A DNA stretch of 64,000 nt from contig JBHPIO010000005.1 of NCBI GenBank assembly GCA_042568575.1, positions 1-64,000 of the forward strand, written 5' to 3'. Numbering within the stretch: position 1 is the stretch's first letter; every line of letters starts with the position of its first letter. Positions 2,953 to 49,744 of this stretch are shown here, one piece after another. Under the pieces are notes generated by a model that did no database searches, was not told the origin of the DNA, and saw only the letters and a program-made list of their open reading frames with translations. The DNA comes from Patescibacteria group bacterium (GTDB lineage Bacteria; Patescibacteriota; Gracilibacteria; UBA1369; PNNO01). The position numbers were made by a program, and so were the translations under genes.

Positions 2953-3630
2953 ATGAAAAAACACACACTAAAAAAAGGGTTTTCTCTTCCAGAAGTGATC
3001 GTTGCGATCTCAATGATCGTTCTTGTTATTGTAACTGCTACAAACTTATTAATAGCTTCTACTAGAGCGAATCGAGGGAATATAAATGACATTGTTGCTT
3101 ACAATCTTGCTCAAGAAGCAGTTGAAGGTATACGAAATATTCGCGACGGGTACTGGCTTCATAACCAGCCGTGGCGAGGCGACAAAAAACTTTTTGGAAG
3201 TAACTTTTTGGCGGATGGTTTTTACACAATTAATATTAATAGGAACTTATATTCTCCACAGTCATGTACTTATGACGATTCGGCGCAATACAGGTTTCCG
3301 TCTTTTATTGAGAGGTATGCACCATGGGAATTAAGGTATTTGGGTTCACCAAATGAAACGATTTTGCTTACGGGCGATGCTCCTAAATTATATTTAACAA
3401 CTGACACTAATAGCGAAGTGAAAAGGTATGAACATAGTTCACTTGGCGGGGAAGAAAGTGGTTTTAGGAGATGGGTTGAAATTGAATCTCTTCCTTATGA
3501 AGGAGCGGATTCTGTTCCGGGGGAATTGAAAATTGCAATAACTGCGGTTGTTGAGTGGGAAGAACTTGGTAGAACACAACGCGTTAGTATTCCTACTATT
3601 TTAACTGATTGGAAATCGGGACCTTTATAA
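2953..3630 (+). CDS. Prepilin-type minor pilin (PilV-like)
   Basis: KKG|FSLPEVIVA and 'AYNLAQEAVEGIRNIRD'. ATG at 2953 preferred over TTG at 2944. Confidence 0.87.
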   Translation: MKKHTLKKGFSLPEVIVAISMIVLVIVTATNLLIASTRANRGNINDIVAYNLAQEAVEGIRNIRDGYWLHNQPWRGDKKLFGSNFLADGFYTININRNLYSPQSCTYDDSAQYRFPSFIERYAPWELRYLGSPNETILLTGDAPKLYLTTDTNSEVKRYEHSSLGGEESGFRRWVEIESLPYEGADSVPGELKIAITAVVEWEELGRTQRVSIPTILTDWKSGPL

Positions 3631-30560: not shown

Positions 30561-30653
30561 AATGAGTTTTACTTATTTGAGCGCATTTATCACTTTACAC
30601 TTTCCTCAAAACGCATACAATAAGAACGCGCGAAAATATCTAAATATCACAAT

Positions 30654-31829
30654 ATGAACAACATGAAAAAATTTCTTGCAGCTTTAGTACTTTTTGGAAC
30701 ATTTTTTGGAATGTCATCAGTTGCATTTGCTGGAGACCCGAATTTTCAATTGGAACCAGTTTTATTTGAACCGATTCAGCCGATTGAATCGATTATTCCA
30801 ATAGAACCTATAGAACCACTTGTTCCGATAGATCCCGATGATCCTTATACTGACGATCCTGCTCTTGAGGTATTTTTGAATGGAGAACACTTGGAAGATG
30901 GAAGAGTTGCGTTGAACTGGGAACGATATGATGGACCTGATTTCCTTCACTATAAAGTTGTTCATGATCAGTTTGATTCGGAACCTTACTATCCTGAACA
31001 TGGATTTGTAGATTATTTTGAAAATCAGAATAAAACTGGGATGGTTAGTCCAGAAGCGCTTCCTGTAGGGGATAACTATATTAGGATTTGTGTGATTACT
31101 ACTGATGATAGAAGAGGTTGTGGAAATACTTTGTATTTTTATCAAGAAGAAATGGCGTTTGAAGAAGAACCATTTGAACCGGAACGTGATTTTGAACCTG
31201 AAGAAGATAGGCCAACACGAGAAGAATTATTGGAAGAAGAATTGCGTGCGGAAAGAGAAGCACGTGCTGAGATTGAAAAAGCTAATAATAAAAATGAGTC
31301 ACCTGGTCTTTTAAAGAAATTATTCAAATTGATTACTGATAATGCGGGATTAGTTATAACACTTCTTGCTCTTGTTGTTGCAGCTTCAGGATTTACTTTT
31401 GCAGCAAAAAGAAAGCAACGTTCAATATCAAAATATATTAATCAAATTGACGATACTTATTCAGAATACAAGATGAAGGCAAAGCGTTGTGAAGCTGAAT
31501 TATATCGTTTGCGAGATATTGTTGATGATGAACTAAAAAATGGAAAATTAGATGATAGTGCTTATGGACTTTTGATGCAGAGAATTGAAAATTACATGGT
31601 GGATATTCAGAAGCAGATTGTTAATGAAAAGTTTGGAGGACTTCCAGCGAGCATGAAAGATGAGATGTTTAAAATGATGGAAGACGGAGAAATTACGGAA
31701 AAAGAGTTTGAAGCTATGCAGACATTGATTAAGCGTTCTGAGCTATCAAGTAGCGATCAAGACAGTCTTCTTCAGACAATTAAAGAATTCAAGCATCAGG
31801 ATGAAATGCTTAAAAAGAAGAAGAAATAA
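30654..31829 (+). CDS. Single-pass membrane protein: signal peptide, Pro-rich linker, FN3-like domain, TM, helical cytoplasmic domain
   Basis: AFA signal, EP/IP repeats, 'VALNWERY..DF.HYKVV', TM near residue 235 and a charged C-terminus. Confidence 0.7.
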   Translation: MNNMKKFLAALVLFGTFFGMSSVAFAGDPNFQLEPVLFEPIQPIESIIPIEPIEPLVPIDPDDPYTDDPALEVFLNGEHLEDGRVALNWERYDGPDFLHYKVVHDQFDSEPYYPEHGFVDYFENQNKTGMVSPEALPVGDNYIRICVITTDDRRGCGNTLYFYQEEMAFEEEPFEPERDFEPEEDRPTREELLEEELRAEREARAEIEKANNKNESPGLLKKLFKLITDNAGLVITLLALVVAASGFTFAAKRKQRSISKYINQIDDTYSEYKMKAKRCEAELYRLRDIVDDELKNGKLDDSAYGLLMQRIENYMVDIQKQIVNEKFGGLPASMKDEMFKMMEDGEITEKEFEAMQTLIKRSELSSSDQDSLLQTIKEFKHQDEMLKKKKK

Positions 31830-32321
31830 TTAGTTTATAAACAGAGTTATTCCTGTTAGTACTGCCGCGAAACATACCCAGGCAAGGTATGGAATGAGCA
31901 AGTATGAGGCGACTTTGGATATTTTGTGCGTGCACCAAATTAGAAGAATAATTGATGCGATAAGAATTGGAAGTTCCAAGAATGCTAGTAAAATATTTTT
32001 CATTCCGAAGTATAGGAGCGAGTAAAGCATATTGAGTGCTGCATTTACTACAAAAAGTCCAATAGCAAGATTGCATCTCTTTTTCTTTTTGCGCTGTTGG
32101 TTTAATACAATAATTGCAGATGCAGCTATCATTATAAAAAGAATTGACCATATTGGGTAAAACACCCAGCCTGGTGGTTGGCATATTGGTTTATTTAGAT
32201 TACGTGCCCATTGAATGTTTTGTTCGCTGACAAGTGCAGAAAATAGCCAAACCATCACTGCAATTAGAATGACAATTACAGCGTAAAAGGTATTTTTTAA
32301 TGTGATGTGCGCTTTGTTCAT
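31830..32321 (-). CDS. tspO: TspO/MBR tryptophan-rich sensory protein
   Basis: 'WARNLNKP..QPPGWVFYPIWSILF' and 'LLIPYLAWVCFA'. Confidence 0.9.
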   Translation of the reverse strand: MNKAHITLKNTFYAVIVILIAVMVWLFSALVSEQNIQWARNLNKPICQPPGWVFYPIWSILFIMIAASAIIVLNQQRKKKKRCNLAIGLFVVNAALNMLYSLLYFGMKNILLAFLELPILIASIILLIWCTHKISKVASYLLIPYLAWVCFAAVLTGITLFIN

Positions 32322-32324
32322 AAG

Positions 32325-32783
32325 TTAGCAGGTCATATGCTCCCCACTACATGTGTTATATCCGTGTGCGCTCCATTGCTTGATTCCTCCAGCCATACTC
32401 TTAACATTTGAGTAGCCGAGTTTTGTTAATATATTAAATGCTTCCATACTTCTTCTGCCAGATCTGCAATAAACAATTATTTCGTCGTCTTTATCAAATT
32501 GTGTATTGGCAGCCAAATCGTCTTCGAGAGTTTGCAAAGGCATTAAAATTGCATCACTAAGGTGATACTCTTCATACTCTTCTGGAGTTCGGACGTCCAA
32601 AAGTACAACAATCTCTTTGTTTTCCACTCTTTCGTATGTTTGAATTGCTGAAATTTCTTCATCGATCACGTTGGCGGTTGTTAAGTCTTCTGTTTGAGCA
32701 GTTTCTGCATTTTGACACCCCGAAAAATTTATAAAAATTAAACTGCAAATTACGAGTGTAAGGATTATTTTCGGTAAACGCAT
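32325..32783 (-). CDS. Rhodanese-like domain lipoprotein
   Basis: Lipobox-like FSGC, LLDVRTPEEY..HL, YCRSGRRS, GGIKQW. Confidence 0.88.
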   Translation of the reverse strand: MRLPKIILTLVICSLIFINFSGCQNAETAQTEDLTTANVIDEEISAIQTYERVENKEIVVLLDVRTPEEYEEYHLSDAILMPLQTLEDDLAANTQFDKDDEIIVYCRSGRRSMEAFNILTKLGYSNVKSMAGGIKQWSAHGYNTCSGEHMTC

Positions 32784-32862
32784 GTCATTATTGTTAATGC
32801 CATCTATTACCTTATAATTTTTTGCCTTTTATGGCAAGGAGGTTTTGTTTTTGAGAGGGGAT

Positions 32863-33505
32863 TGCAACCGGATGAGGGTCGCATGAAGGGGTGGAACTAC
32901 GTTGGTTCTGGCTAGAGTACGTAAATTGTCCAGCCTTTCCAACTGGCTTGGTATGGAAGTTCATTCTGGACGTGCTTGTACCAGTCGATGGCTAGCTTTG
33001 CTACTACAATGAATTTTCGCTGGAGCTTATCTAGCCTGCCATGTACTCTGAGGAGTCTCTTGTTGAACTTTATTGCACTTTCCATTGCTGCTTTACTCGC
33101 ATGGAATTCTCTATATTTGTTTTGCACGAGCAAAGCAAATACTTCTTTCCCGACTTTTTTCCGATTCGCTCCTCTTTTAATTGCAGCTCGGCCATCTTTC
33201 AATATGGCCAACTCTCGTTCCAAACTATCAAGCTTGATATTCAGCATGTCGAGATTGGCATGCTCCATCGGTTTGGGATTGAACTCCTTGATGGCTTTCA
33301 GCTTCGACTGGAGCTTGCCCATACGAGCGCTGTAGCCCGTGGCTTCCTCTTCAAGCGAAGAGAAGTTATCCAAGCCTTTGCGCATGAGCTTATACCTCTG
33401 CTCATCGACTTTCTTGGACTTGCACCCTGCACCGAGAAGAATCGCCATGAACGAAACAACAAAAATTCTCCAGATCATTGGTCCCTCCGTTTTCATCCGG
33501 TCGCA
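32863..33505. repeat. 13-bp inverted repeat pair flanking the orphan lipoprotein gene (32863-32875 and 33493-33505)
   Basis: TGCAACCGGATGA versus TCATCCGGTCGCA: 12/13 complementary, and the mismatch is a G-U pair in the minus-strand RNA. Confidence 0.7.
32912..33478 (-). CDS. Orphan basic helical lipoprotein on a GC-rich cassette
   Basis: Start reassigned to MIWRIFVVSFMAILLGAGC (lipobox), preceded by GGAGG. The ORF-track extension runs through ssb in another frame. Confidence 0.65.
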   Translation of the reverse strand: MIWRIFVVSFMAILLGAGCKSKKVDEQRYKLMRKGLDNFSSLEEEATGYSARMGKLQSKLKAIKEFNPKPMEHANLDMLNIKLDSLERELAILKDGRAAIKRGANRKKVGKEVFALLVQNKYREFHASKAAMESAIKFNKRLLRVHGRLDKLQRKFIVVAKLAIDWYKHVQNELPYQASWKGWTIYVL

Positions 33506-33563
33506 TTTCAATGAACTCCACAACGGAGTCCACAAAATAGACCCGTTATGGTTGTTTAATTGA

Positions 33564-33592
33564 ATTAAAGCGCATATTTGTGAATATGTCAA
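33564..33592 (-). promoter_or_regulatory. Sigma70-type promoter of the orphan lipoprotein
   Basis: TTGACA-17 bp-TTTAAT on the minus strand just downstream of ssb. Confidence 0.6.
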
Positions 33593-33605
33593 CCAGGATG
33601 TAGAT

Positions 33606-34112
33606 TTAGAACGGAAGATCATCGATACTAACATCTTCTTCTTTAGCTGGCGCAGCTTGTGCAACAGCAGGTGTTGCTTCTGTTTCAGCTGTAGGAGCAG
33701 GTGCTTGATCAATTCCAGCGTGAGGGGCTTGTGCAGCAGCAGCAGCCATTGGTGCAGCCATTGCAGCAGGAGCATCGCCTTTTCTATCTAACATTATCAT
33801 GTTGTCAGCAACGATTTCAGTTCGATAACGTTTACTTCCATCTTCAGCTTCCCAGCTTCGTGTTTGAAGTTTTCCTTCAATAAAAACTTTACTTCCTTTT
33901 TTTAGATATTGTCCGCAAATTTCTGCAAGTTTTCTCCATGCAACAATATTGTGGAATTCAACTTTCTCTTGTTTCTGACCACTTTGATCAGTCCATGTTA
34001 AGTTTGTTGCGATACCAAAACTGGTAACAACTTGTCCTCCTGGAATTTGTTTCATTTCCGGGTCGCGCGTAACGTTTCCGATGATTTGCGCTCTGTTTAG
34101 TGACATTGCCAT
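33606..34112 (-). CDS. ssb: Single-stranded DNA-binding protein
   Basis: LNRAQIIGNVTRDPE, EFHNIVAW, IEGKLQTRSW and C-terminal DDLPF. Confidence 0.97.
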   Translation of the reverse strand: MAMSLNRAQIIGNVTRDPEMKQIPGGQVVTSFGIATNLTWTDQSGQKQEKVEFHNIVAWRKLAEICGQYLKKGSKVFIEGKLQTRSWEAEDGSKRYRTEIVADNMIMLDRKGDAPAAMAAPMAAAAAQAPHAGIDQAPAPTAETEATPAVAQAAPAKEEDVSIDDLPF

Positions 34113-34130
34113 GTATATGGGATTAATTAT

Positions 34131-34622
34131 TTATAAATTGATATCTTTATTCATTGCGGTTACACCTGTGCGTACCATTTCAATGATTCCGAATGGTTTA
34201 ATTAGATCAAGAAAGGAGTTTATCTTATCACGTTCTCCCGATGCAAGCATCATAATTTGTTTTTTTTCTACGTGAACGATTTTTGCCTTAAATAAATCAG
34301 CGATTTGTTGTATGTCTCCGCGCTTTTTCATGTCCGCCTTAACTTTAACCATTACAACTTCCGCGGCAAGAATATTGTCGTGAGTTACATCACGCACTTT
34401 AATAACAGGAACAATCTTATAAAGTTGCTTCATAACCTGTTCAACATCTGTATCGCCTGTATTCACAACAATAGTAATGCGGGTAATACCCTTTTTTTCG
34501 GTATAACCTGCGGAAATACTTTCAATATTGAATCGTCTCCTGCGGAATAGTGAGCTAATCCGGTTCAAAACACCCGGTTCGTTCTCTACAATCGCAACTA
34601 ATATATGCTGATGATTTTTCAT
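34131..34622 (-). CDS. ilvN: Acetolactate synthase small (regulatory) subunit
   Basis: VENEPGVLNRISSLFRRRRFNIESI, EQVMKQLYK and C-terminal 'FGIIEMVRTG'. Confidence 0.92.
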   Translation of the reverse strand: MKNHQHILVAIVENEPGVLNRISSLFRRRRFNIESISAGYTEKKGITRITIVVNTGDTDVEQVMKQLYKIVPVIKVRDVTHDNILAAEVVMVKVKADMKKRGDIQQIADLFKAKIVHVEKKQIMMLASGERDKINSFLDLIKPFGIIEMVRTGVTAMNKDINL

Positions 34623-34685
34623 GCATTTAAATTAACTTTCGTACGAGAAGTTTACTATATGAATAGCTTTAGTGGAATAGATTTT

Positions 34686-34859
34686 TTAGCAGCCTCCGGG
34701 ATTGATTTCTCCAATAAATTCTATCGGTTCTCGCGTAAGGTACATATGGTGTAAATAACCAAAAAAGTATCCAAAAATGAGGGAAATGAGTATACTAAGA
34801 CCCGCGATAGTGATTTTTATTAATTTTTCGCGCGTAATTTCAATCGGTTTTATATGCAT
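34686..34859 (-). CDS. Possible 57-aa membrane peptide or truncated gene (absent from the ORF track)
   Basis: Translates as MHIKPIEITREKLIKITIAGLSILISLIFGYFFGYLHHMYLTREPIEFIGEINPGGC*. It has one TM helix and fills the gap. Confidence 0.4.
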   Translation of the reverse strand: MHIKPIEITREKLIKITIAGLSILISLIFGYFFGYLHHMYLTREPIEFIGEINPGGC

Positions 34860-36041
34860 AAGTACGTATTTATATTAGGAAGGAAGTGGATGCTTGCAGC
34901 AGCTGAGATTAAGGCAGTGTTTGGGGATGCTTTCGTTACCGCATTCAATGAATTTGCGATTTGTGAGTTTGATAAGCCTTTAAAGGATCCTCAGATTGTT
35001 CTGGATAAACTTGGTGGAACTATAAAAATTGGTGAAATTGTTGATGAAGTTCCTGGTGTGAAGCATCTTGATTCTGCGATTATTGATTATTTGAGCAGTG
35101 TACGTGATGGAAAGATCCAATTTGCCATTTCTCTCTATAATATGACAGATGGATATAAAAATACTCTAAAAAAATTATTAAGAAATGTGAAAGACGGGTT
35201 GCGCGAAAGTGGTTCAGGAAAGGTGCGTTTTTACAACAAACCTGATCAAAACATAAAAAGTGTAGTTATTCATGAGGAAAATTTGGCACAAAAGGGGACT
35301 GATATTTCTGTTATGCGTGATAGTGGAAGGCATTACATTGCTCGCACGGTTGCGGTTCAAAATTTCAAAAAATATTCGATTCGTGACTATGATCGCCCTG
35401 CAAAAGATGCAAAGAGTGGAATGTTACCGCCTAAACTTGCTCAAATAATGATTAATTTGGCGTGCAAGGGTAGGGATGATGCTGTGATTTACGATCCTTT
35501 TTGTGGAAGTGGAACGGTTTTGATGGAAGGAGCCTTAATGGGACATAAAGTTATTGGCAGTGATATAAGTAATAAGGCGATTTTGGATAGTCAGAAGAAT
35601 TTAAAGTGGCTTTCTGAGCAATTTAAAGTTGATTTGGGACTTGTGCGTAATATTTTTGTGAAGGATGCGACTAAGGTTGTTCTTGAAGATTTGCCTGAGC
35701 GGCCTGATTTTATTGTTGGCGAGACGTATTTGGGGCCTCCTTTGTTCAAATTGCCATCTCCAGATGAAATAAAGAAGAATTTTAGCGAAATTGAAGGGAT
35801 TGTTCTTGGTTCGCTAAAGCAGTTCAAGAATATTGCTGCAAAAGGTGGGTCGATTGTTCTGGCAGTACCTTTTTATCGTTATAGAGGGGGAAAACATTTT
35901 TTGGATAATTTAGTTGAGAAAGCTGGTGAGCTTGGAATTGTTGTTGATAACCTACCAAATGGCAGCAAAAGAGGTTCACTTTTGTATGATAGGAAAGATC
36001 AAGTTGTTGGTAGAGAGATATTTCGTTTTAAAATAAGTTGA
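34854..36041 (+). CDS. TRM11-like SAM-dependent RNA methyltransferase
   Basis: 'RDYDRP..DAKSGMLPPKLAQIMINL', 'YDPFCGSGTVLMEG', 'ETYLGPP'. Confidence 0.85.
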   Translation: MHKYVFILGRKWMLAAAEIKAVFGDAFVTAFNEFAICEFDKPLKDPQIVLDKLGGTIKIGEIVDEVPGVKHLDSAIIDYLSSVRDGKIQFAISLYNMTDGYKNTLKKLLRNVKDGLRESGSGKVRFYNKPDQNIKSVVIHEENLAQKGTDISVMRDSGRHYIARTVAVQNFKKYSIRDYDRPAKDAKSGMLPPKLAQIMINLACKGRDDAVIYDPFCGSGTVLMEGALMGHKVIGSDISNKAILDSQKNLKWLSEQFKVDLGLVRNIFVKDATKVVLEDLPERPDFIVGETYLGPPLFKLPSPDEIKKNFSEIEGIVLGSLKQFKNIAAKGGSIVLAVPFYRYRGGKHFLDNLVEKAGELGIVVDNLPNGSKRGSLLYDRKDQVVGREIFRFKIS

Positions 36042-48700: not shown

Positions 48701-49744
48701 CTAGCTTTCCGGTCTCAATTTCCTAACTTGCTTTCCAGCCTGCCACATTTCACTATTGCCCATCTCAGCAAGTTCTTTATCTAACTCTTCACGATAATCT
48801 GGTCTGCTGTTTTTATCCAAAACAATTTCTGTTTCAGTTCCATTCTTAACACTTTTATAAAGGTCAGTGAATACTGGTGCGACAGCATCCCGGAATTTGT
48901 CTTTCCAGTCGAGTGCTCCACGTTGTGCAGTTGTTGAACAATTTGCAAACATCCAATCCATTCCATTTTCTCCAATTAGTGGAATTAAACTTTGAGTAGC
49001 TTCTTCAACAGTTTCATTAAATGCTTCACTTGGAGAATGTCCGCGTTTACGAAGTTCGTTATATTGAGCTTCCATTATTCCTGCCATTGCTCCCATCAAA
49101 ACTCCTCGTTCACCAGTTAAATCGCTATAAACTTCATTTTTGAAAGTTGTTTCAAATAAATATCCTGAACCAACAGCAATCCCAAGAGCCAAACATTTTT
49201 CTTCTGCTCTTCCAGTTGCATCTTGATAAATTGCATAACTTGAATTGACACCCTTTCCTTCAAGATAGTGTTTTCTAACAAGTCCACCAGGTCCTTTTGG
49301 TCCAACAAGAACAACGTCGATATCTTTCGGTGGAACAACTCCTGTTTGATTACTGTAAGTTACAGCAAATCCGTGCGAGAAATATAAAGTTTTGCCACTT
49401 GTTAAATATGGCTTTATTGTTGGCCAAACAGCTTTTTGACCTGCATCTGAAAGCAAGTACATTAGAACAGTCCCTTTTTCTGCAGCCTGCTCAATTGGGA
49501 ATAAAGTCTCGCCAGGAACCCATCCGTCTTTAATTGCCTTATCCCAACTTTTTGAACCTTCTCTTTGTCCGATAATTACATTTATGCCGTTGTCTTTTAA
49601 ATTTAATGCTTGTCCAGGTCCTTGAACTCCATATCCAAGTACTGCAACAGTTTCATCTTTTAAAATTTCTTGTGCCTTTTCCAATGGAAACTCTTCACGT
49701 GTCACGACATTTTCTTCAACGCCGCCAAAATCAAGTTTTGTCAT
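48701..49744 (-). CDS. ilvC: Ketol-acid reductoisomerase (Bacteroidetes/fungal-like type)
   Basis: GYGVQGPGQALNLKDNG, YFSHGF, SDLTGERGVLMG, EAFNETVEE, NCSTTAQRGALDW. Confidence 0.95.
   Translation of the reverse strand: MTKLDFGGVEENVVTREEFPLEKAQEILKDETVAVLGYGVQGPGQALNLKDNGINVIIGQREGSKSWDKAIKDGWVPGETLFPIEQAAEKGTVLMYLLSDAGQKAVWPTIKPYLTSGKTLYFSHGFAVTYSNQTGVVPPKDIDVVLVGPKGPGGLVRKHYLEGKGVNSSYAIYQDATGRAEEKCLALGIAVGSGYLFETTFKNEVYSDLTGERGVLMGAMAGIMEAQYNELRKRGHSPSEAFNETVEEATQSLIPLIGENGMDWMFANCSTTAQRGALDWKDKFRDAVAPVFTDLYKSVKNGTETEIVLDKNSRPDYREELDKELAEMGNSEMWQAGKQVRKLRPES

What the first reader, a model, noticed from the sequence alone, without database searches (positions are those of the whole stretch)
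32836..33592. Self-contained GC-rich orphan gene whose mRNA ends are complementary and can switch structure next to the ribosome-binding site
Seen: a segment visibly more GC-rich than its flanks with its own TTGACA-17-TTTAAT promoter, a leader of about 80 nt containing a hairpin (GGACUCC...GGAGUUC), a strong GGAGG SD (most genes here have AT-rich, SD-less starts) and an orphan lipoprotein ORF. The 5' UTR sequence UGCGACCGGAUGA (33505-33493), just upstream of the SD, is complementary to the 3' UTR sequence UCAUCCGGUUGCA (32875-32863), 13 bp with one G-U. The adjoining 3' CCCUC could also pair with the SD-overlapping GAGGG. The same 3' segment can instead fold locally as UGCGACC-loop-GGUUGCA (32883-32863), and an anti-SD-like ACCUCCUU lies at 32843-32836. 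Known: 5'-3' end pairing silences type I toxin mRNAs (hok, aapA) and closes processing stems. Inference: a translationally locked, end-paired mRNA cassette, possibly tuned for a different (host) translation system or activated by 3' processing. It could instead be a non-autonomous mobile cassette. I know of no described system matching it.
Basis: partly seen in the sequence, partly recalled or inferred. Interest (0 to 1): 0.75.

Follow-up and report, generated by a model that had tools for sequence, protein, structure and literature searches.

The report
Recently inserted foreign orphan lipoprotein gene
This is a 760-base piece of foreign DNA, inserted just after the ssb gene in one lineage only, that carries a single gene for a lipoprotein with no known relatives; its matching ends are real but show no sign of locking translation.

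Summary
The sequence features are there: the 13-bp complement (33505-33493 / 32875-32863), the GGAGG SD, higher GC and a 188-aa lipoprotein-like ORF. 

A related metagenomic contig joins 32844 directly to 33605. Seven of 10 family genomes examined put the rhodanese gene 12-129 nt after ssb. So 32845-33604 is a 760-bp insertion in this lineage. 

The protein matched only itself among about 15 billion proteins. 

It is one of 38 codon-atypical, GC-rich genes in this 1.2-Mb, SD-poor genome. Of these, 18 of 38 carry an SD, against 42 of 943 other ORFs. 

The end pairing is strong alone (-22.3 kcal/mol) and has probability 0.93 in a short transcript. It is not exceptional: 10 of 5000 shuffles match it, and it ranks 6 of 957. 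SD accessibility is the same with or without the 3' region. The pairing falls to 0.06 or 0.00 in longer transcripts, and no terminator is predicted. Conservation cannot be tested. 

The genome has an integron whose cassettes show similar end complementarity, but the orphan fails the cassette tests. 

Verdict: an ordinary, recent horizontal acquisition. The translational lock is unsupported.

The parts
32845..33604 (-). 760-bp lineage-specific inserted segment. The cut may lie up to 2 nt further, at 32847-33606.
   Evidence: contig record 23 of run X4 (987 bp) joins 32844 directly to 33605, skipping 760 nt with 2 ambiguous letters. GC 0.454 against 0.36/0.38 in the flanks; 7 of 10 family loci have rhodanese 12-129 nt after ssb.
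33564..33592 (-). Sigma-70-like promoter candidate, TTGACA-17-TTTAAT, inside the insert
   Evidence: Read. Not listed by the scan because TTTAAT lacks A at position 2. Function unproven.
33518..33551 (-). Leader hairpin (15 bp with one bulge).
   Evidence: leader MFE -24.7 kcal/mol; small hairpin -8.6 kcal/mol.
33493..33505 (-). 5' arm UGCGACCGGAUGA. It contains the alternative start ATG 33496-33494 chosen by the public gene call (P0002, 194 aa).
33484..33488 (-). GGAGG Shine-Dalgarno, 5 nt before ATG 33478
   Evidence: SD motifs are rare in native genes.
32912..33478 (-). ORF for a 188-aa ORFan: lipoprotein-type signal peptide followed by an all-helical body
   Evidence: translation; no family; only itself. 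AF2 all-alpha, pLDDT 63.8. GC1/2/3 = 0.50/0.32/0.55.
32863..32875 (-). 3' arm UCAUCCGGUUGCA, 37-49 nt after the stop codon
32877..32883 (-). UGCGACC, which pairs locally with 32869-32863 as an alternative 3' hairpin
   Evidence: -9.1 kcal/mol; probability 0.905-0.918 in the longer transcripts.
32836..32843 (-). ACCUCCUU, in native flank outside the insert. It is part of a hairpin that scores as a terminator on the + strand only.
   Evidence: X4 contig covers up to 32844. (+ strand terminator-like site 32818-32841).

Best explanation
A 760-bp piece of foreign DNA (32845-33604) was inserted 1-3 nt after the ssb stop codon, into the short native ssb-rhodanese spacer. This happened in the lineage of this genome only. 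The most likely route is illegitimate recombination, because the junction shares only 2 nt. The segment brought one complete gene with a donor-type GGAGG ribosome-binding site and a promoter-like site. The gene encodes a 188-aa protein with a lipoprotein signal peptide and a helical body, and no detectable relatives. It is one member of a class of about 38 GC-rich, codon-atypical, SD-bearing genes, many of them lipoprotein-like, that this AT-rich, SD-poor 1.2-Mb genome has picked up. The 13-bp complementarity between the regions before and after the ORF is physically real. It is most likely incidental, or a leftover from the donor context, and not a device that locks translation. Shown: the insertion, its polarity, the foreign composition, the orphan status and the class. 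Inferred: expression as a lipoprotein, the mode of insertion, and the absence of a regulatory role for the pairing.
For: Insertion and polarity:
- an X4 contig joins 32844|33605. An X1 contig has 550 letters where this genome has 1294.
- in 7 of 10 family loci the rhodanese gene starts 12-129 nt after ssb; 2 have ilvC there and 1 has TspO.
- the same-genus genome G001 lacks the orphan and keeps a 24-codon remnant of rhodanese.

Foreign origin:
- GC 0.454 against 0.36/0.38.
- codon-usage rank 30 of 993 and GC3 rank 29; top GC3 of 75 ORFs on its contig.

Orphan status:
- found in 0 of 60 relatives' genomes.
- only itself among 5.8 billion cluster representatives.
- only itself plus one tandem-repeat artefact among 1.84 billion representatives (no BLASTP alignment to that artefact).
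- no match in plasmids, phages, metagenome contigs or viral contigs.
- no Pfam or PHROG match; NCBIfam gave only two weak matches far below cut-off.

Class:
- SD 4-mer in 18 of 38 atypical ORFs against 42 of 943 others (Fisher p 1.4e-13). Lipobox in 7 of 38 against 34 of 943 (p 6e-4).
- 7 of 10 small GC-rich genes have no Pfam family.
- three further GC-rich segments (about 2.3 kb, 0.85 kb and 2.75 kb) are absent from G001.

Pairing not a lock:
- SD unpaired probability 0.38 with the 3' region and 0.30-0.34 without. Helix probability 0.93 in the short transcript, 0.056 with read-through, 0.000 from ssb.
- no terminator predicted.
- 10 of 5000 shuffles reach the score; rank 6 of 957.
Against: - The helix is strong (-22.3 kcal/mol). 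It is in both the MFE and the centroid of the short transcript, and it is the best contiguous 5'/3' helix of 976 ORFs.
- The same 3' arm can fold locally, and CCCUC motifs flank it. Together these look like a designed switch.
- If the true start is ATG 33496 (the public gene call), the helix would cover the start codon.
- GC-rich atypical genes show a mild excess of flanking inverted repeats: z >= 1.7 in 8 of 38 against 67 of 919, p 0.007. The threshold was chosen after seeing the data, and Mann-Whitney gives p 0.075. This hints that end complementarity may mean something for the class.
- No donor or homologue was found, so horizontal transfer rests on composition and on presence/absence.
- No RNA data exist, so the transcript ends are unknown.
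Confidence: 0.6

Rival explanations
1. The 5'/3' pairing is a working post-transcriptional device of the icaR or hbs kind. The region after the ORF pairs with the leader beside the ribosome-binding site, or over the alternative start ATG 33496. This lowers translation or changes mRNA decay until the 3' arm is sequestered in its local hairpin or removed by processing.
For: - 13 bp, -22.3 kcal/mol.
- Pair probability 0.93 in a transcript from about 33556 to 32812; present in the MFE and the centroid.
- An alternative local 3' hairpin exists (-9.1 kcal/mol).
- GGG of the SD pairs with CCC next to the 3' arm in the MFE.
- Best contiguous helix of 976 ORFs.
- The alternative start ATG 33496 lies inside the 5' arm.
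Against: - SD accessibility is not changed by the 3' region in the model.
- The helix vanishes in read-through or ssb-initiated transcripts.
- No terminator is predicted after the 3' arm.
- 10 of 5000 shuffles reach the score, and five ordinary genes outrank it by z.
- The segment is a recent foreign insert, so host-adapted regulation is unlikely.
- There is no homologue with which to test conservation.
Confidence: 0.15
2. The segment is a degraded integron gene cassette, or a fragment of a foreign cassette array, and the end complementarity is the remnant of the base of an attC stem. This genome and its whole family carry an integron whose cassettes start GTTRYRYGAAAT plus an arm and end with the complementary arm plus RYRYAAC.
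For: - Integron locus on G000 contig C12: tyrosine recombinase and 10-11 attC-like sites.
- The same attC family occurs in 13 of 13 family genomes.
- Array cassettes show 17-35 nt end complementarity and dominate the genome-wide list.
- The orphan's 5' arm is preceded in register by GTTCATTGAAATG.
- The best, though insignificant, attC-model match in the 1.4-kb region is the orphan's leader, 33567-33505.
- Truncated attC remnants next to small lipoprotein genes exist elsewhere in the genome.
Against: - No attC by HMM or covariance model (3.6 bits, E 2.3).
- The insertion boundary lies 88 nt upstream of the GTT, not at G|TT.
- The R''-like box matches the complement of GTTCATT at only 4 of 7 positions, whereas true cassettes match at 6-7 (my reading).
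- GTTN4GAAATG occurs 30 times in the genome, against 15 for a reversed control.
- Array cassettes are AT-rich (GC 0.29-0.44) and the two printed starts that I read show no SD, unlike the orphan.
- The direct repeat near the insert ends is not significant (444 of 5000 shuffles).
Confidence: 0.13
3. The insert is inert foreign DNA. The ORF was a gene in its donor but is not expressed, or is not useful, in this host. It will decay, as the neighbouring rhodanese gene has done in G001.
For: - Native genes do not use SDs.
- The -10 hexamer is poor.
- No relative carries the gene.
- The language-model recognition score is low, 1777.
- The locus shows repeated gain and loss across the family.
Against: - The 188-codon frame is intact.
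- GC1/GC2/GC3 of 0.50/0.32/0.55 is coding-like.
- The signal peptide and SD are intact.
- The 16S rRNA keeps the anti-SD.
- The gene lies co-oriented between ssb and rhodanese, so it can be transcribed by read-through.
Confidence: 0.1

Closest known systems
Strain-specific, horizontally acquired ORFan genes (small flexible genomic islets)
   Same: Present in one lineage and absent at an exact empty site in relatives. Deviant GC and codon usage, donor-type translation signals, no homologues, and a surface or lipoprotein product.
   Different: Very small (760 bp, one gene). No integrase, tRNA, IS or repeat at its borders. It sits in a 1.2-Mb genome that otherwise avoids SD sequences.
icaR mRNA of Staphylococcus aureus: 3'-UTR UCCCCUG pairs with the SD region (PMC3868564, abstract read)
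   Same: Complementarity between the region after the ORF and the leader of the same gene. C-rich CCCUC / UCCCCU motifs lie next to the 3' arm, and GGAGGG lies in the leader.
   Different: Here the main helix lies upstream of the SD and does not change its predicted accessibility. There is no defined 3' end, no conservation and no experimental data.
Fold-back inhibition of type I toxin mRNAs (hok, aapA1); recalled, no paper read
   Same: Long-range 5'-3' pairing, with an alternative local hairpin at the 3' end.
   Different: The product is a 188-aa lipoprotein, not a small membrane toxin. No antisense RNA gene was identified. The arms are not at mapped RNA termini.
Integron gene cassettes, including cassettes at secondary sites and attC clusters without integrase (PMC4889954, passages read)
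   Same: A single promoter-poor gene unit whose two ends are complementary. An integron with the same architecture is present in this genome. An R'-like GTTCATTGAAATG precedes the 5' arm.
   Different: No attC, wrong boundaries, poor R'/R'' match, foreign composition, own SD and promoter-like site, and a different contig from the array.
B. subtilis hbs mRNA 5'/3'-UTR interaction (PMC5737220; search listing and start of abstract only)
   Same: Pairing of the mRNA ends linked to a strong SD.
   Different: Its role there is in RNase protection. Nothing comparable could be tested here.

Membership tests
Integron gene cassette | attC recombination site (R''-L''...L'-R') downstream of the ORF | tested here: not met
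   An nhmmer profile built from 5 array attC sites found no hit on contig C27. Covariance model R1 gave a best score of 3.6 bits, E 2.3, and that match is in the leader, not downstream of the ORF. Both models are built from this family's attC sites, so a very different attC could be missed.
Integron gene cassette | Unit boundaries at G|TTRRRY | tested here: not met
   The empty-site junction 32844|33605 puts the 5' boundary 88 nt upstream of GTTCATT. Neither end reads TT...G on either strand.
Integron gene cassette | R' at the cassette start complementary to R'' at its end | tested here: not met
   Most G006 cassettes pair GTTRYRY with RYRYAAC as part of a longer complement. For the orphan, GTTCATT against CAAAAAC matches 4 of 7 with unequal spacers (my reading).
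Integron gene cassette | Located in an array next to an integron integrase | tested here: not met
   The array and recombinase are on contig C12. The orphan is on C27, between ssb and rhodanese.
icaR-type 5'-3' UTR translational control | The 3' region pairs with the SD and reduces ribosome access | tested here: not met
   Tested in silico only. SD unpaired probability is 0.38 with the 3' region and 0.30-0.34 without. The helix ends 4 nt upstream of GGAGG.
icaR-type 5'-3' UTR translational control | Both arms lie on one defined mRNA (mapped 5' and 3' ends) | tested here: inconclusive
   No terminator is predicted after the 3' arm. No RNA run holds the region. The helix is lost in longer transcripts.
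icaR-type 5'-3' UTR translational control | Conservation or covariation of the pairing | not testable with these tools
   No homologue exists in any collection searched.
Type I toxin-antitoxin mRNA (hok/aapA) | Small hydrophobic toxin peptide | tested here: not met
   The product is 188 aa, with a signal peptide and a soluble helical body.
Type I toxin-antitoxin mRNA (hok/aapA) | Overlapping antisense RNA gene | not tested
   The only lead is a promoter-like site on the + strand at 32791-32818, directly followed by a terminator-like hairpin. There are no RNA data.
Bacterial lipoprotein | N-terminal positive residue, hydrophobic stretch, lipobox ending in Cys | tested here: met
   MIWRIFVVSFMAILLGAGC fits my lipobox pattern. 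The rule itself is recalled, not taken from a tool. Gly at -3 is unusual.
Transposon / MITE-like mobile cassette | Terminal inverted repeats, target-site duplication, multiple copies | tested here: not met
   The arms lie 100 and 18 nt inside the ends. The junction ambiguity is only 2 nt. The segment is single copy in the genome.

The most novel reading that the evidence does not exclude
The orphan belongs to a so far undescribed class of single-gene, GC-rich, SD-bearing ORFan cassettes, many of them lipoproteins. These are captured by an integron-bearing lineage with a genome of about 1 Mb and scattered outside the array. On this reading their complementary ends are the footprint of the recombination structure that moved them, or are reused as an mRNA end-pairing signal. 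The clearest other examples are a 21-nt pair around G000:C31:39212-39917, a 15-nt pair around C12:21091-21838 and the 13-nt pair here.
Probability: 0.1. Interest if true: 0.7.

Novelty: new member of a known kind. Interest (0 to 1): 0.33.

Why it matters
On its own this is a well-documented small case of recent gene gain. The empty site, the polarity and the foreign translation signals are all visible, in a streamlined genome that does not otherwise use Shine-Dalgarno sequences.

It shows that such a genome keeps taking up complete foreign genes with donor-type signals. About 38 ORFs fall in this class, and they are enriched in lipoproteins.

It also shows that complementary gene ends in this genome are mostly explained by integron cassette architecture. 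That is a caution for anyone reading 5'/3' complementarity as RNA regulation.

If the pairing did prove functional, it would add a rare bacterial example of control by pairing of the mRNA ends.

Tried and rejected
**Homologue searches.** These found nothing usable.
- 60 relatives' genomes.
- word-indexed protein search.
- exhaustive HMMER search. The only other hit, P0003, is a translated tandem repeat, and BLASTP gives no alignment to it.
- Pfam and PHROGs gave no match; NCBIfam and PADLOC gave only weak matches (E 0.005-0.05).
- plasmids and phages, tblastn.
- metagenome and viral contig scans.
- ESM Atlas, best scores 0.82-0.85, which are leads only.

**Structure.** The AlphaFold2 model made without an alignment is all-helical, pLDDT 63.8. 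Foldseek against PDB gave no match at E <= 0.001.

**RNA families.** Rfam gave only a chance-level isrG match, E 0.38.

**RNA evidence.** No RNA holder was listed. The four DNA runs hold small shares only, and no contig of any of them covers 32952-33539.

**Remnant of ilvC?** In G006 and G003 ilvC sits at this position. tblastn of ilvC against the region gave nothing.

**Repeated element?** There is no other copy of the arms or UTRs in the genome.

**RNAduplex ranking.** Rejected as a measure. It rewards GC-rich flanks, and the orphan's start was mis-set in that run.

**Two spurious 'atypical ORFs'.** Those at C1 178.8-180.0 kb lie in a 6-kb stretch that is 88% identical in G001. I took this to be rRNA, an assumption I did not verify, and dropped both from the class counts.

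**Direct repeat CATCC(T)GGTTG near both insert ends.** Not significant: 444 of 5000 shuffles reach it.

**Circular-junction fold.** It did not look like a single attC hairpin.

**Taxonomy.** Not resolved. The genome-contig scan with the rhodanese protein returned only distant hits from many phyla. The second metagenome scan also gave only distant hits. The Por_Secre_tail search was uninformative because its controls were silent. The 16S rRNA lacks a recalled Bacteroidetes probe target.

**Not used.** Supplementary files of the papers were not seen, and none bears on the claims made here.
Full report
**Observation.**
- A TTGACA-17-TTTAAT promoter-like site lies at 33592-33564.
- The leader is about 78 nt.
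- GGAGG lies at 33488-33484, 5 nt before ATG 33478.
- The ORF runs to TAG 32914-32912 and encodes 188 aa that begin MIWRIFVVSFMAILLGAGC.
- UGCGACCGGAUGA (33505-33493) is complementary to UCAUCCGGUUGCA (32875-32863) with one G-U (pair I2). The isolated duplex is -22.3 kcal/mol.
- The 3' arm can instead pair locally with UGCGACC (32883-32877) at -9.1 kcal/mol.

- TTTAAT lacks the conserved A at position 2, so the consensus scan does not list the site.
- ACCUCCUU (32843-32836) lies in native flank, outside the inserted segment.

The public gene call (P0002, 194 aa) starts at ATG 33496, inside the 5' arm.

**What it is: an insertion.**
Contigs from four public runs were laid on 30600-35000.
- One 987-bp contig from run X4 (12-13% letter differences over the rhodanese gene, 7% over the ssb tail) runs through TspO and rhodanese to 32844. 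It then continues directly at 33605, in the ssb tail. It skips 760 nt, with 2 ambiguous letters and nothing in between.
- A more distant contig from run X1 has 550 letters where this genome has 1294, which leaves no room for the gene.

Family genomes point the same way.
- In 7 of 10 loci (L007, L009-L014) the rhodanese lipoprotein gene starts 12-129 nt after the ssb stop.
- In 2 loci (G006, G003) ilvC sits between them.
- In 1 locus (G007) TspO follows ssb directly.

The same-genus genome G001 lacks the orphan. It has 43 unrelated nucleotides after ssb, followed by a 24-codon remnant of the rhodanese 3' end. So ssb-rhodanese adjacency is ancestral, and 32845-33604 was inserted in this lineage. 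No similarity to ilvC remains in the segment.

**Foreign composition and translation signals.**
- The insert has GC 0.454, against 0.36 and 0.38 in the 2-kb flanks.
- The ORF has GC3 0.543, the highest of 75 ORFs on its contig; the next is 0.378.
- It ranks 30 of 993 for atypical codon usage.
- GC1/GC2/GC3 of 0.50/0.32/0.55 is coding-like.

Native genes avoid SDs. An SD 4-mer lies upstream of 59 of 989 crude ORF calls, against 10.5% of random 17-mers, although the 16S rRNA ends in ...CACCUCCUUUCU.

The 38 most codon-atypical ORFs are GC-rich (two presumed rRNA-borne artefacts removed). They differ from the rest.
- 18 of 38 carry an SD 4-mer, against 42 of 943 others (p 1.4e-13).
- 7 of 38 carry a lipobox, against 34 of 943 (p 6e-4).
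- 7 of 10 small members have no Pfam family.

Three further GC-rich segments are missing from G001: two on C12 and one on C31. The orphan is therefore a typical member of a class of recently gained foreign genes.

**The protein.**
No relative was found.
- 0 of 60 related genomes.
- Only itself among the 5.8 billion cluster representatives.
- Only itself plus a repeat artefact among 1.84 billion representatives read exhaustively.
- Nothing in plasmids, phages, metagenome contigs or viral contigs.
- No family in Pfam or PHROGs; NCBIfam and PADLOC gave only weak matches.

The single-sequence AlphaFold2 model is an all-helical bundle (pLDDT 63.8, pTM 0.55). It has no significant PDB neighbour. I read the product as a small helical lipoprotein of unknown role. 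Lipidation and expression are inferred.

**Is the end complementarity more than chance?**
- By the best contiguous helix between the 100 nt before the start and the 100 nt after the stop, the orphan ranks 1 of 976 ORFs. Its score is 32; the next is 29; the mean is 18.2, sd 2.9.
- Dinucleotide shuffles of its own flanks reach 32 in 10 of 5000 trials.
- With a gapped measure and per-gene shuffles it has z 3.9 and ranks 11 of 976; 2 of 100 shuffles reach it.
- After removing integron cassettes, attC remnants and the presumed rRNA stretches, it ranks 6 of 957.

One event of this strength per genome is about what chance gives. The comparison also favours the orphan, because only its start codon was corrected by hand.

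**Does it lock translation?**
Partition-function folding gives the following.
- In a transcript from about 33556 to 32812 the 13-bp helix has mean probability 0.93.
- The SD's unpaired probability is 0.38 with the 3' region and 0.30-0.34 when the transcript is cut at the stop codon or just before the 3' arm.
- With read-through to the end of the rhodanese gene the helix falls to 0.056, and the local 3' hairpin rises to 0.905.
- In a transcript starting at ssb the helix is 0.000.

No terminator is predicted on this strand after the 3' arm. The next gene is co-oriented and starts 128 nt after the stop codon. No RNA data exist. The model therefore gives no support for a translational lock. Whether the pairing forms at all depends on transcript ends that are unknown.

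**The integron lead.**
The top of the end-complementarity list shares a motif: GTTRNNYGAAAT plus an arm before the gene, and the complementary arm plus RYRYAAC after it. This led to an integron on contig C12.
- The recombinase is a 284-aa tyrosine recombinase. Pfam gives PF00589 and PF13495.
- NCBIfam gives 'tyrosine recombinase/integron integrase' NF040815 at 220.8 bits against a cut-off of 220. TIGR02249 scores 195, below its cut-off of 265.
- It is divergent from 10-11 attC-like sites of 106-159 nt.
- The same attC family is present in 13 of 13 genomes of the family, with 35 sites in G006.
- Most G006 cassettes show 17-35 nt of end complementarity that includes the R'/R'' boxes.

The orphan's 5' arm is preceded in register by GTTCATTGAAATG. 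The membership tests nevertheless fail.
- No attC by profile or covariance model.
- The insertion boundary is 88 nt upstream of the GTT.
- The putative R'' matches at 4 of 7 positions.
- The motif occurs 30 times in the genome, against 15 for a reversed control.
- Array cassettes are AT-rich.

I keep a cassette origin as a rival at about 0.13.

**Synthesis.**
- Shown: a precise 760-bp insertion, of foreign composition, carrying an intact ORFan lipoprotein-type gene with a donor-type SD, and belonging to a class of such genes.
- Inferred: insertion by illegitimate recombination (2-nt junction ambiguity, no repeats); expression from its own promoter-like site or by read-through from ssb; the complementarity being incidental or a relic.

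Closest known regulatory analogue: icaR. There a 3'-UTR UCCCCUG motif pairs with the SD (PMC3868564, abstract). Here that mechanism is untested and not favoured.

On integrons I read passages of PMC4889954. [quoted passage not shown]

Limits of this work.
- Gene calls are crude: longest ATG ORFs of at least 100 aa.
- The lineage was not named.
- The X4 evidence is one low-depth contig, although it agrees with X1 and with the family synteny.
- No expression data exist.

Noticed in passing
G000 contig C12 about 63,900-71,500 (locus L039); not in the window: An integron-like locus. A 284-aa XerA/IntI-like tyrosine recombinase (L039:10603-11457, +) lies divergent from an array of 10-11 attC-like sites (106-159 nt). 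The cassettes encode GNAT acetyltransferases, methyltransferases and unknowns. The same attC family occurs in 13 of 13 genomes of this family, all about 1.0-1.4 Mb, with 35 sites in G006. [quoted passage not shown]
   Followed up: partly
G000 contig C1 52,500-54,900 (locus L040): Truncated or hybrid attC remnants (R''-L'' halves without partners) sit directly next to small lipoprotein genes, outside the main array. This suggests cassettes that became fixed and are decaying.
   Followed up: partly
Whole genome G000 (for example C12:5,979-6,534; C12:17,377-19,462; C12:21,091-21,838; C2:29,114-29,675; C31:39,212-39,917): About 38 GC-rich (0.45-0.62), codon-atypical ORFs are scattered as one- to few-gene islets in a 38% GC genome. 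They are strongly enriched in SD motifs (18 of 38 against 42 of 943) and lipoboxes (7 of 38 against 34 of 943). Most of those checked have no Pfam family, and three checked segments are absent from the congener G001. The donor is unknown.
   Followed up: partly
G000 contig C31 39,212-39,917 (L041:2655-2675 and 3486-3506): A GC-rich 234-aa ORFan is flanked by a 21-nt inverted repeat (TAAAAATTTGAGGTGGGACGG / CCGTTCCCCCTTAGATTTTTA). It gives the strongest end complementarity in the genome (z 7.8). It lies inside a 2.75-kb segment that is absent from G001.
   Followed up: partly
window 31827-32323 and 32398-33604, compared with locus L004 (G001): The same-genus genome G001 lacks TspO and keeps only the last 24 codons of the rhodanese gene next to ssb. 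The ssb-rhodanese-TspO spot has undergone repeated gain and loss: ilvC in G006 and G003, the orphan here, and deletions in G001.
   Followed up: yes
window 48836-49666 (-): A divergent ilvC-like gene, 36% identical to the ilvC that follows ssb in G003 (locus L006), lies elsewhere in the window. ilvN still sits next to ssb (34131-34622).
   Followed up: no
window 32791-32841 (+): On the + strand there is a 10-of-12 promoter-like site (TTGTTA-16-TATAAT), immediately followed by a terminator-like hairpin and U tract that point into the 3' end of the orphan. It could be a bidirectional terminator remnant or a tiny antisense unit.
   Followed up: no
loci L007, L008, L009, L012, L013, L014 (spacer after ssb): A conserved motif, AAGTTTACTTGCAGT(A/T)AA, occurs in the ssb-downstream spacer of 6 of 10 family loci. 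It is absent from the corresponding spacer of this genome. It may be a native promoter or operator.
   Followed up: no
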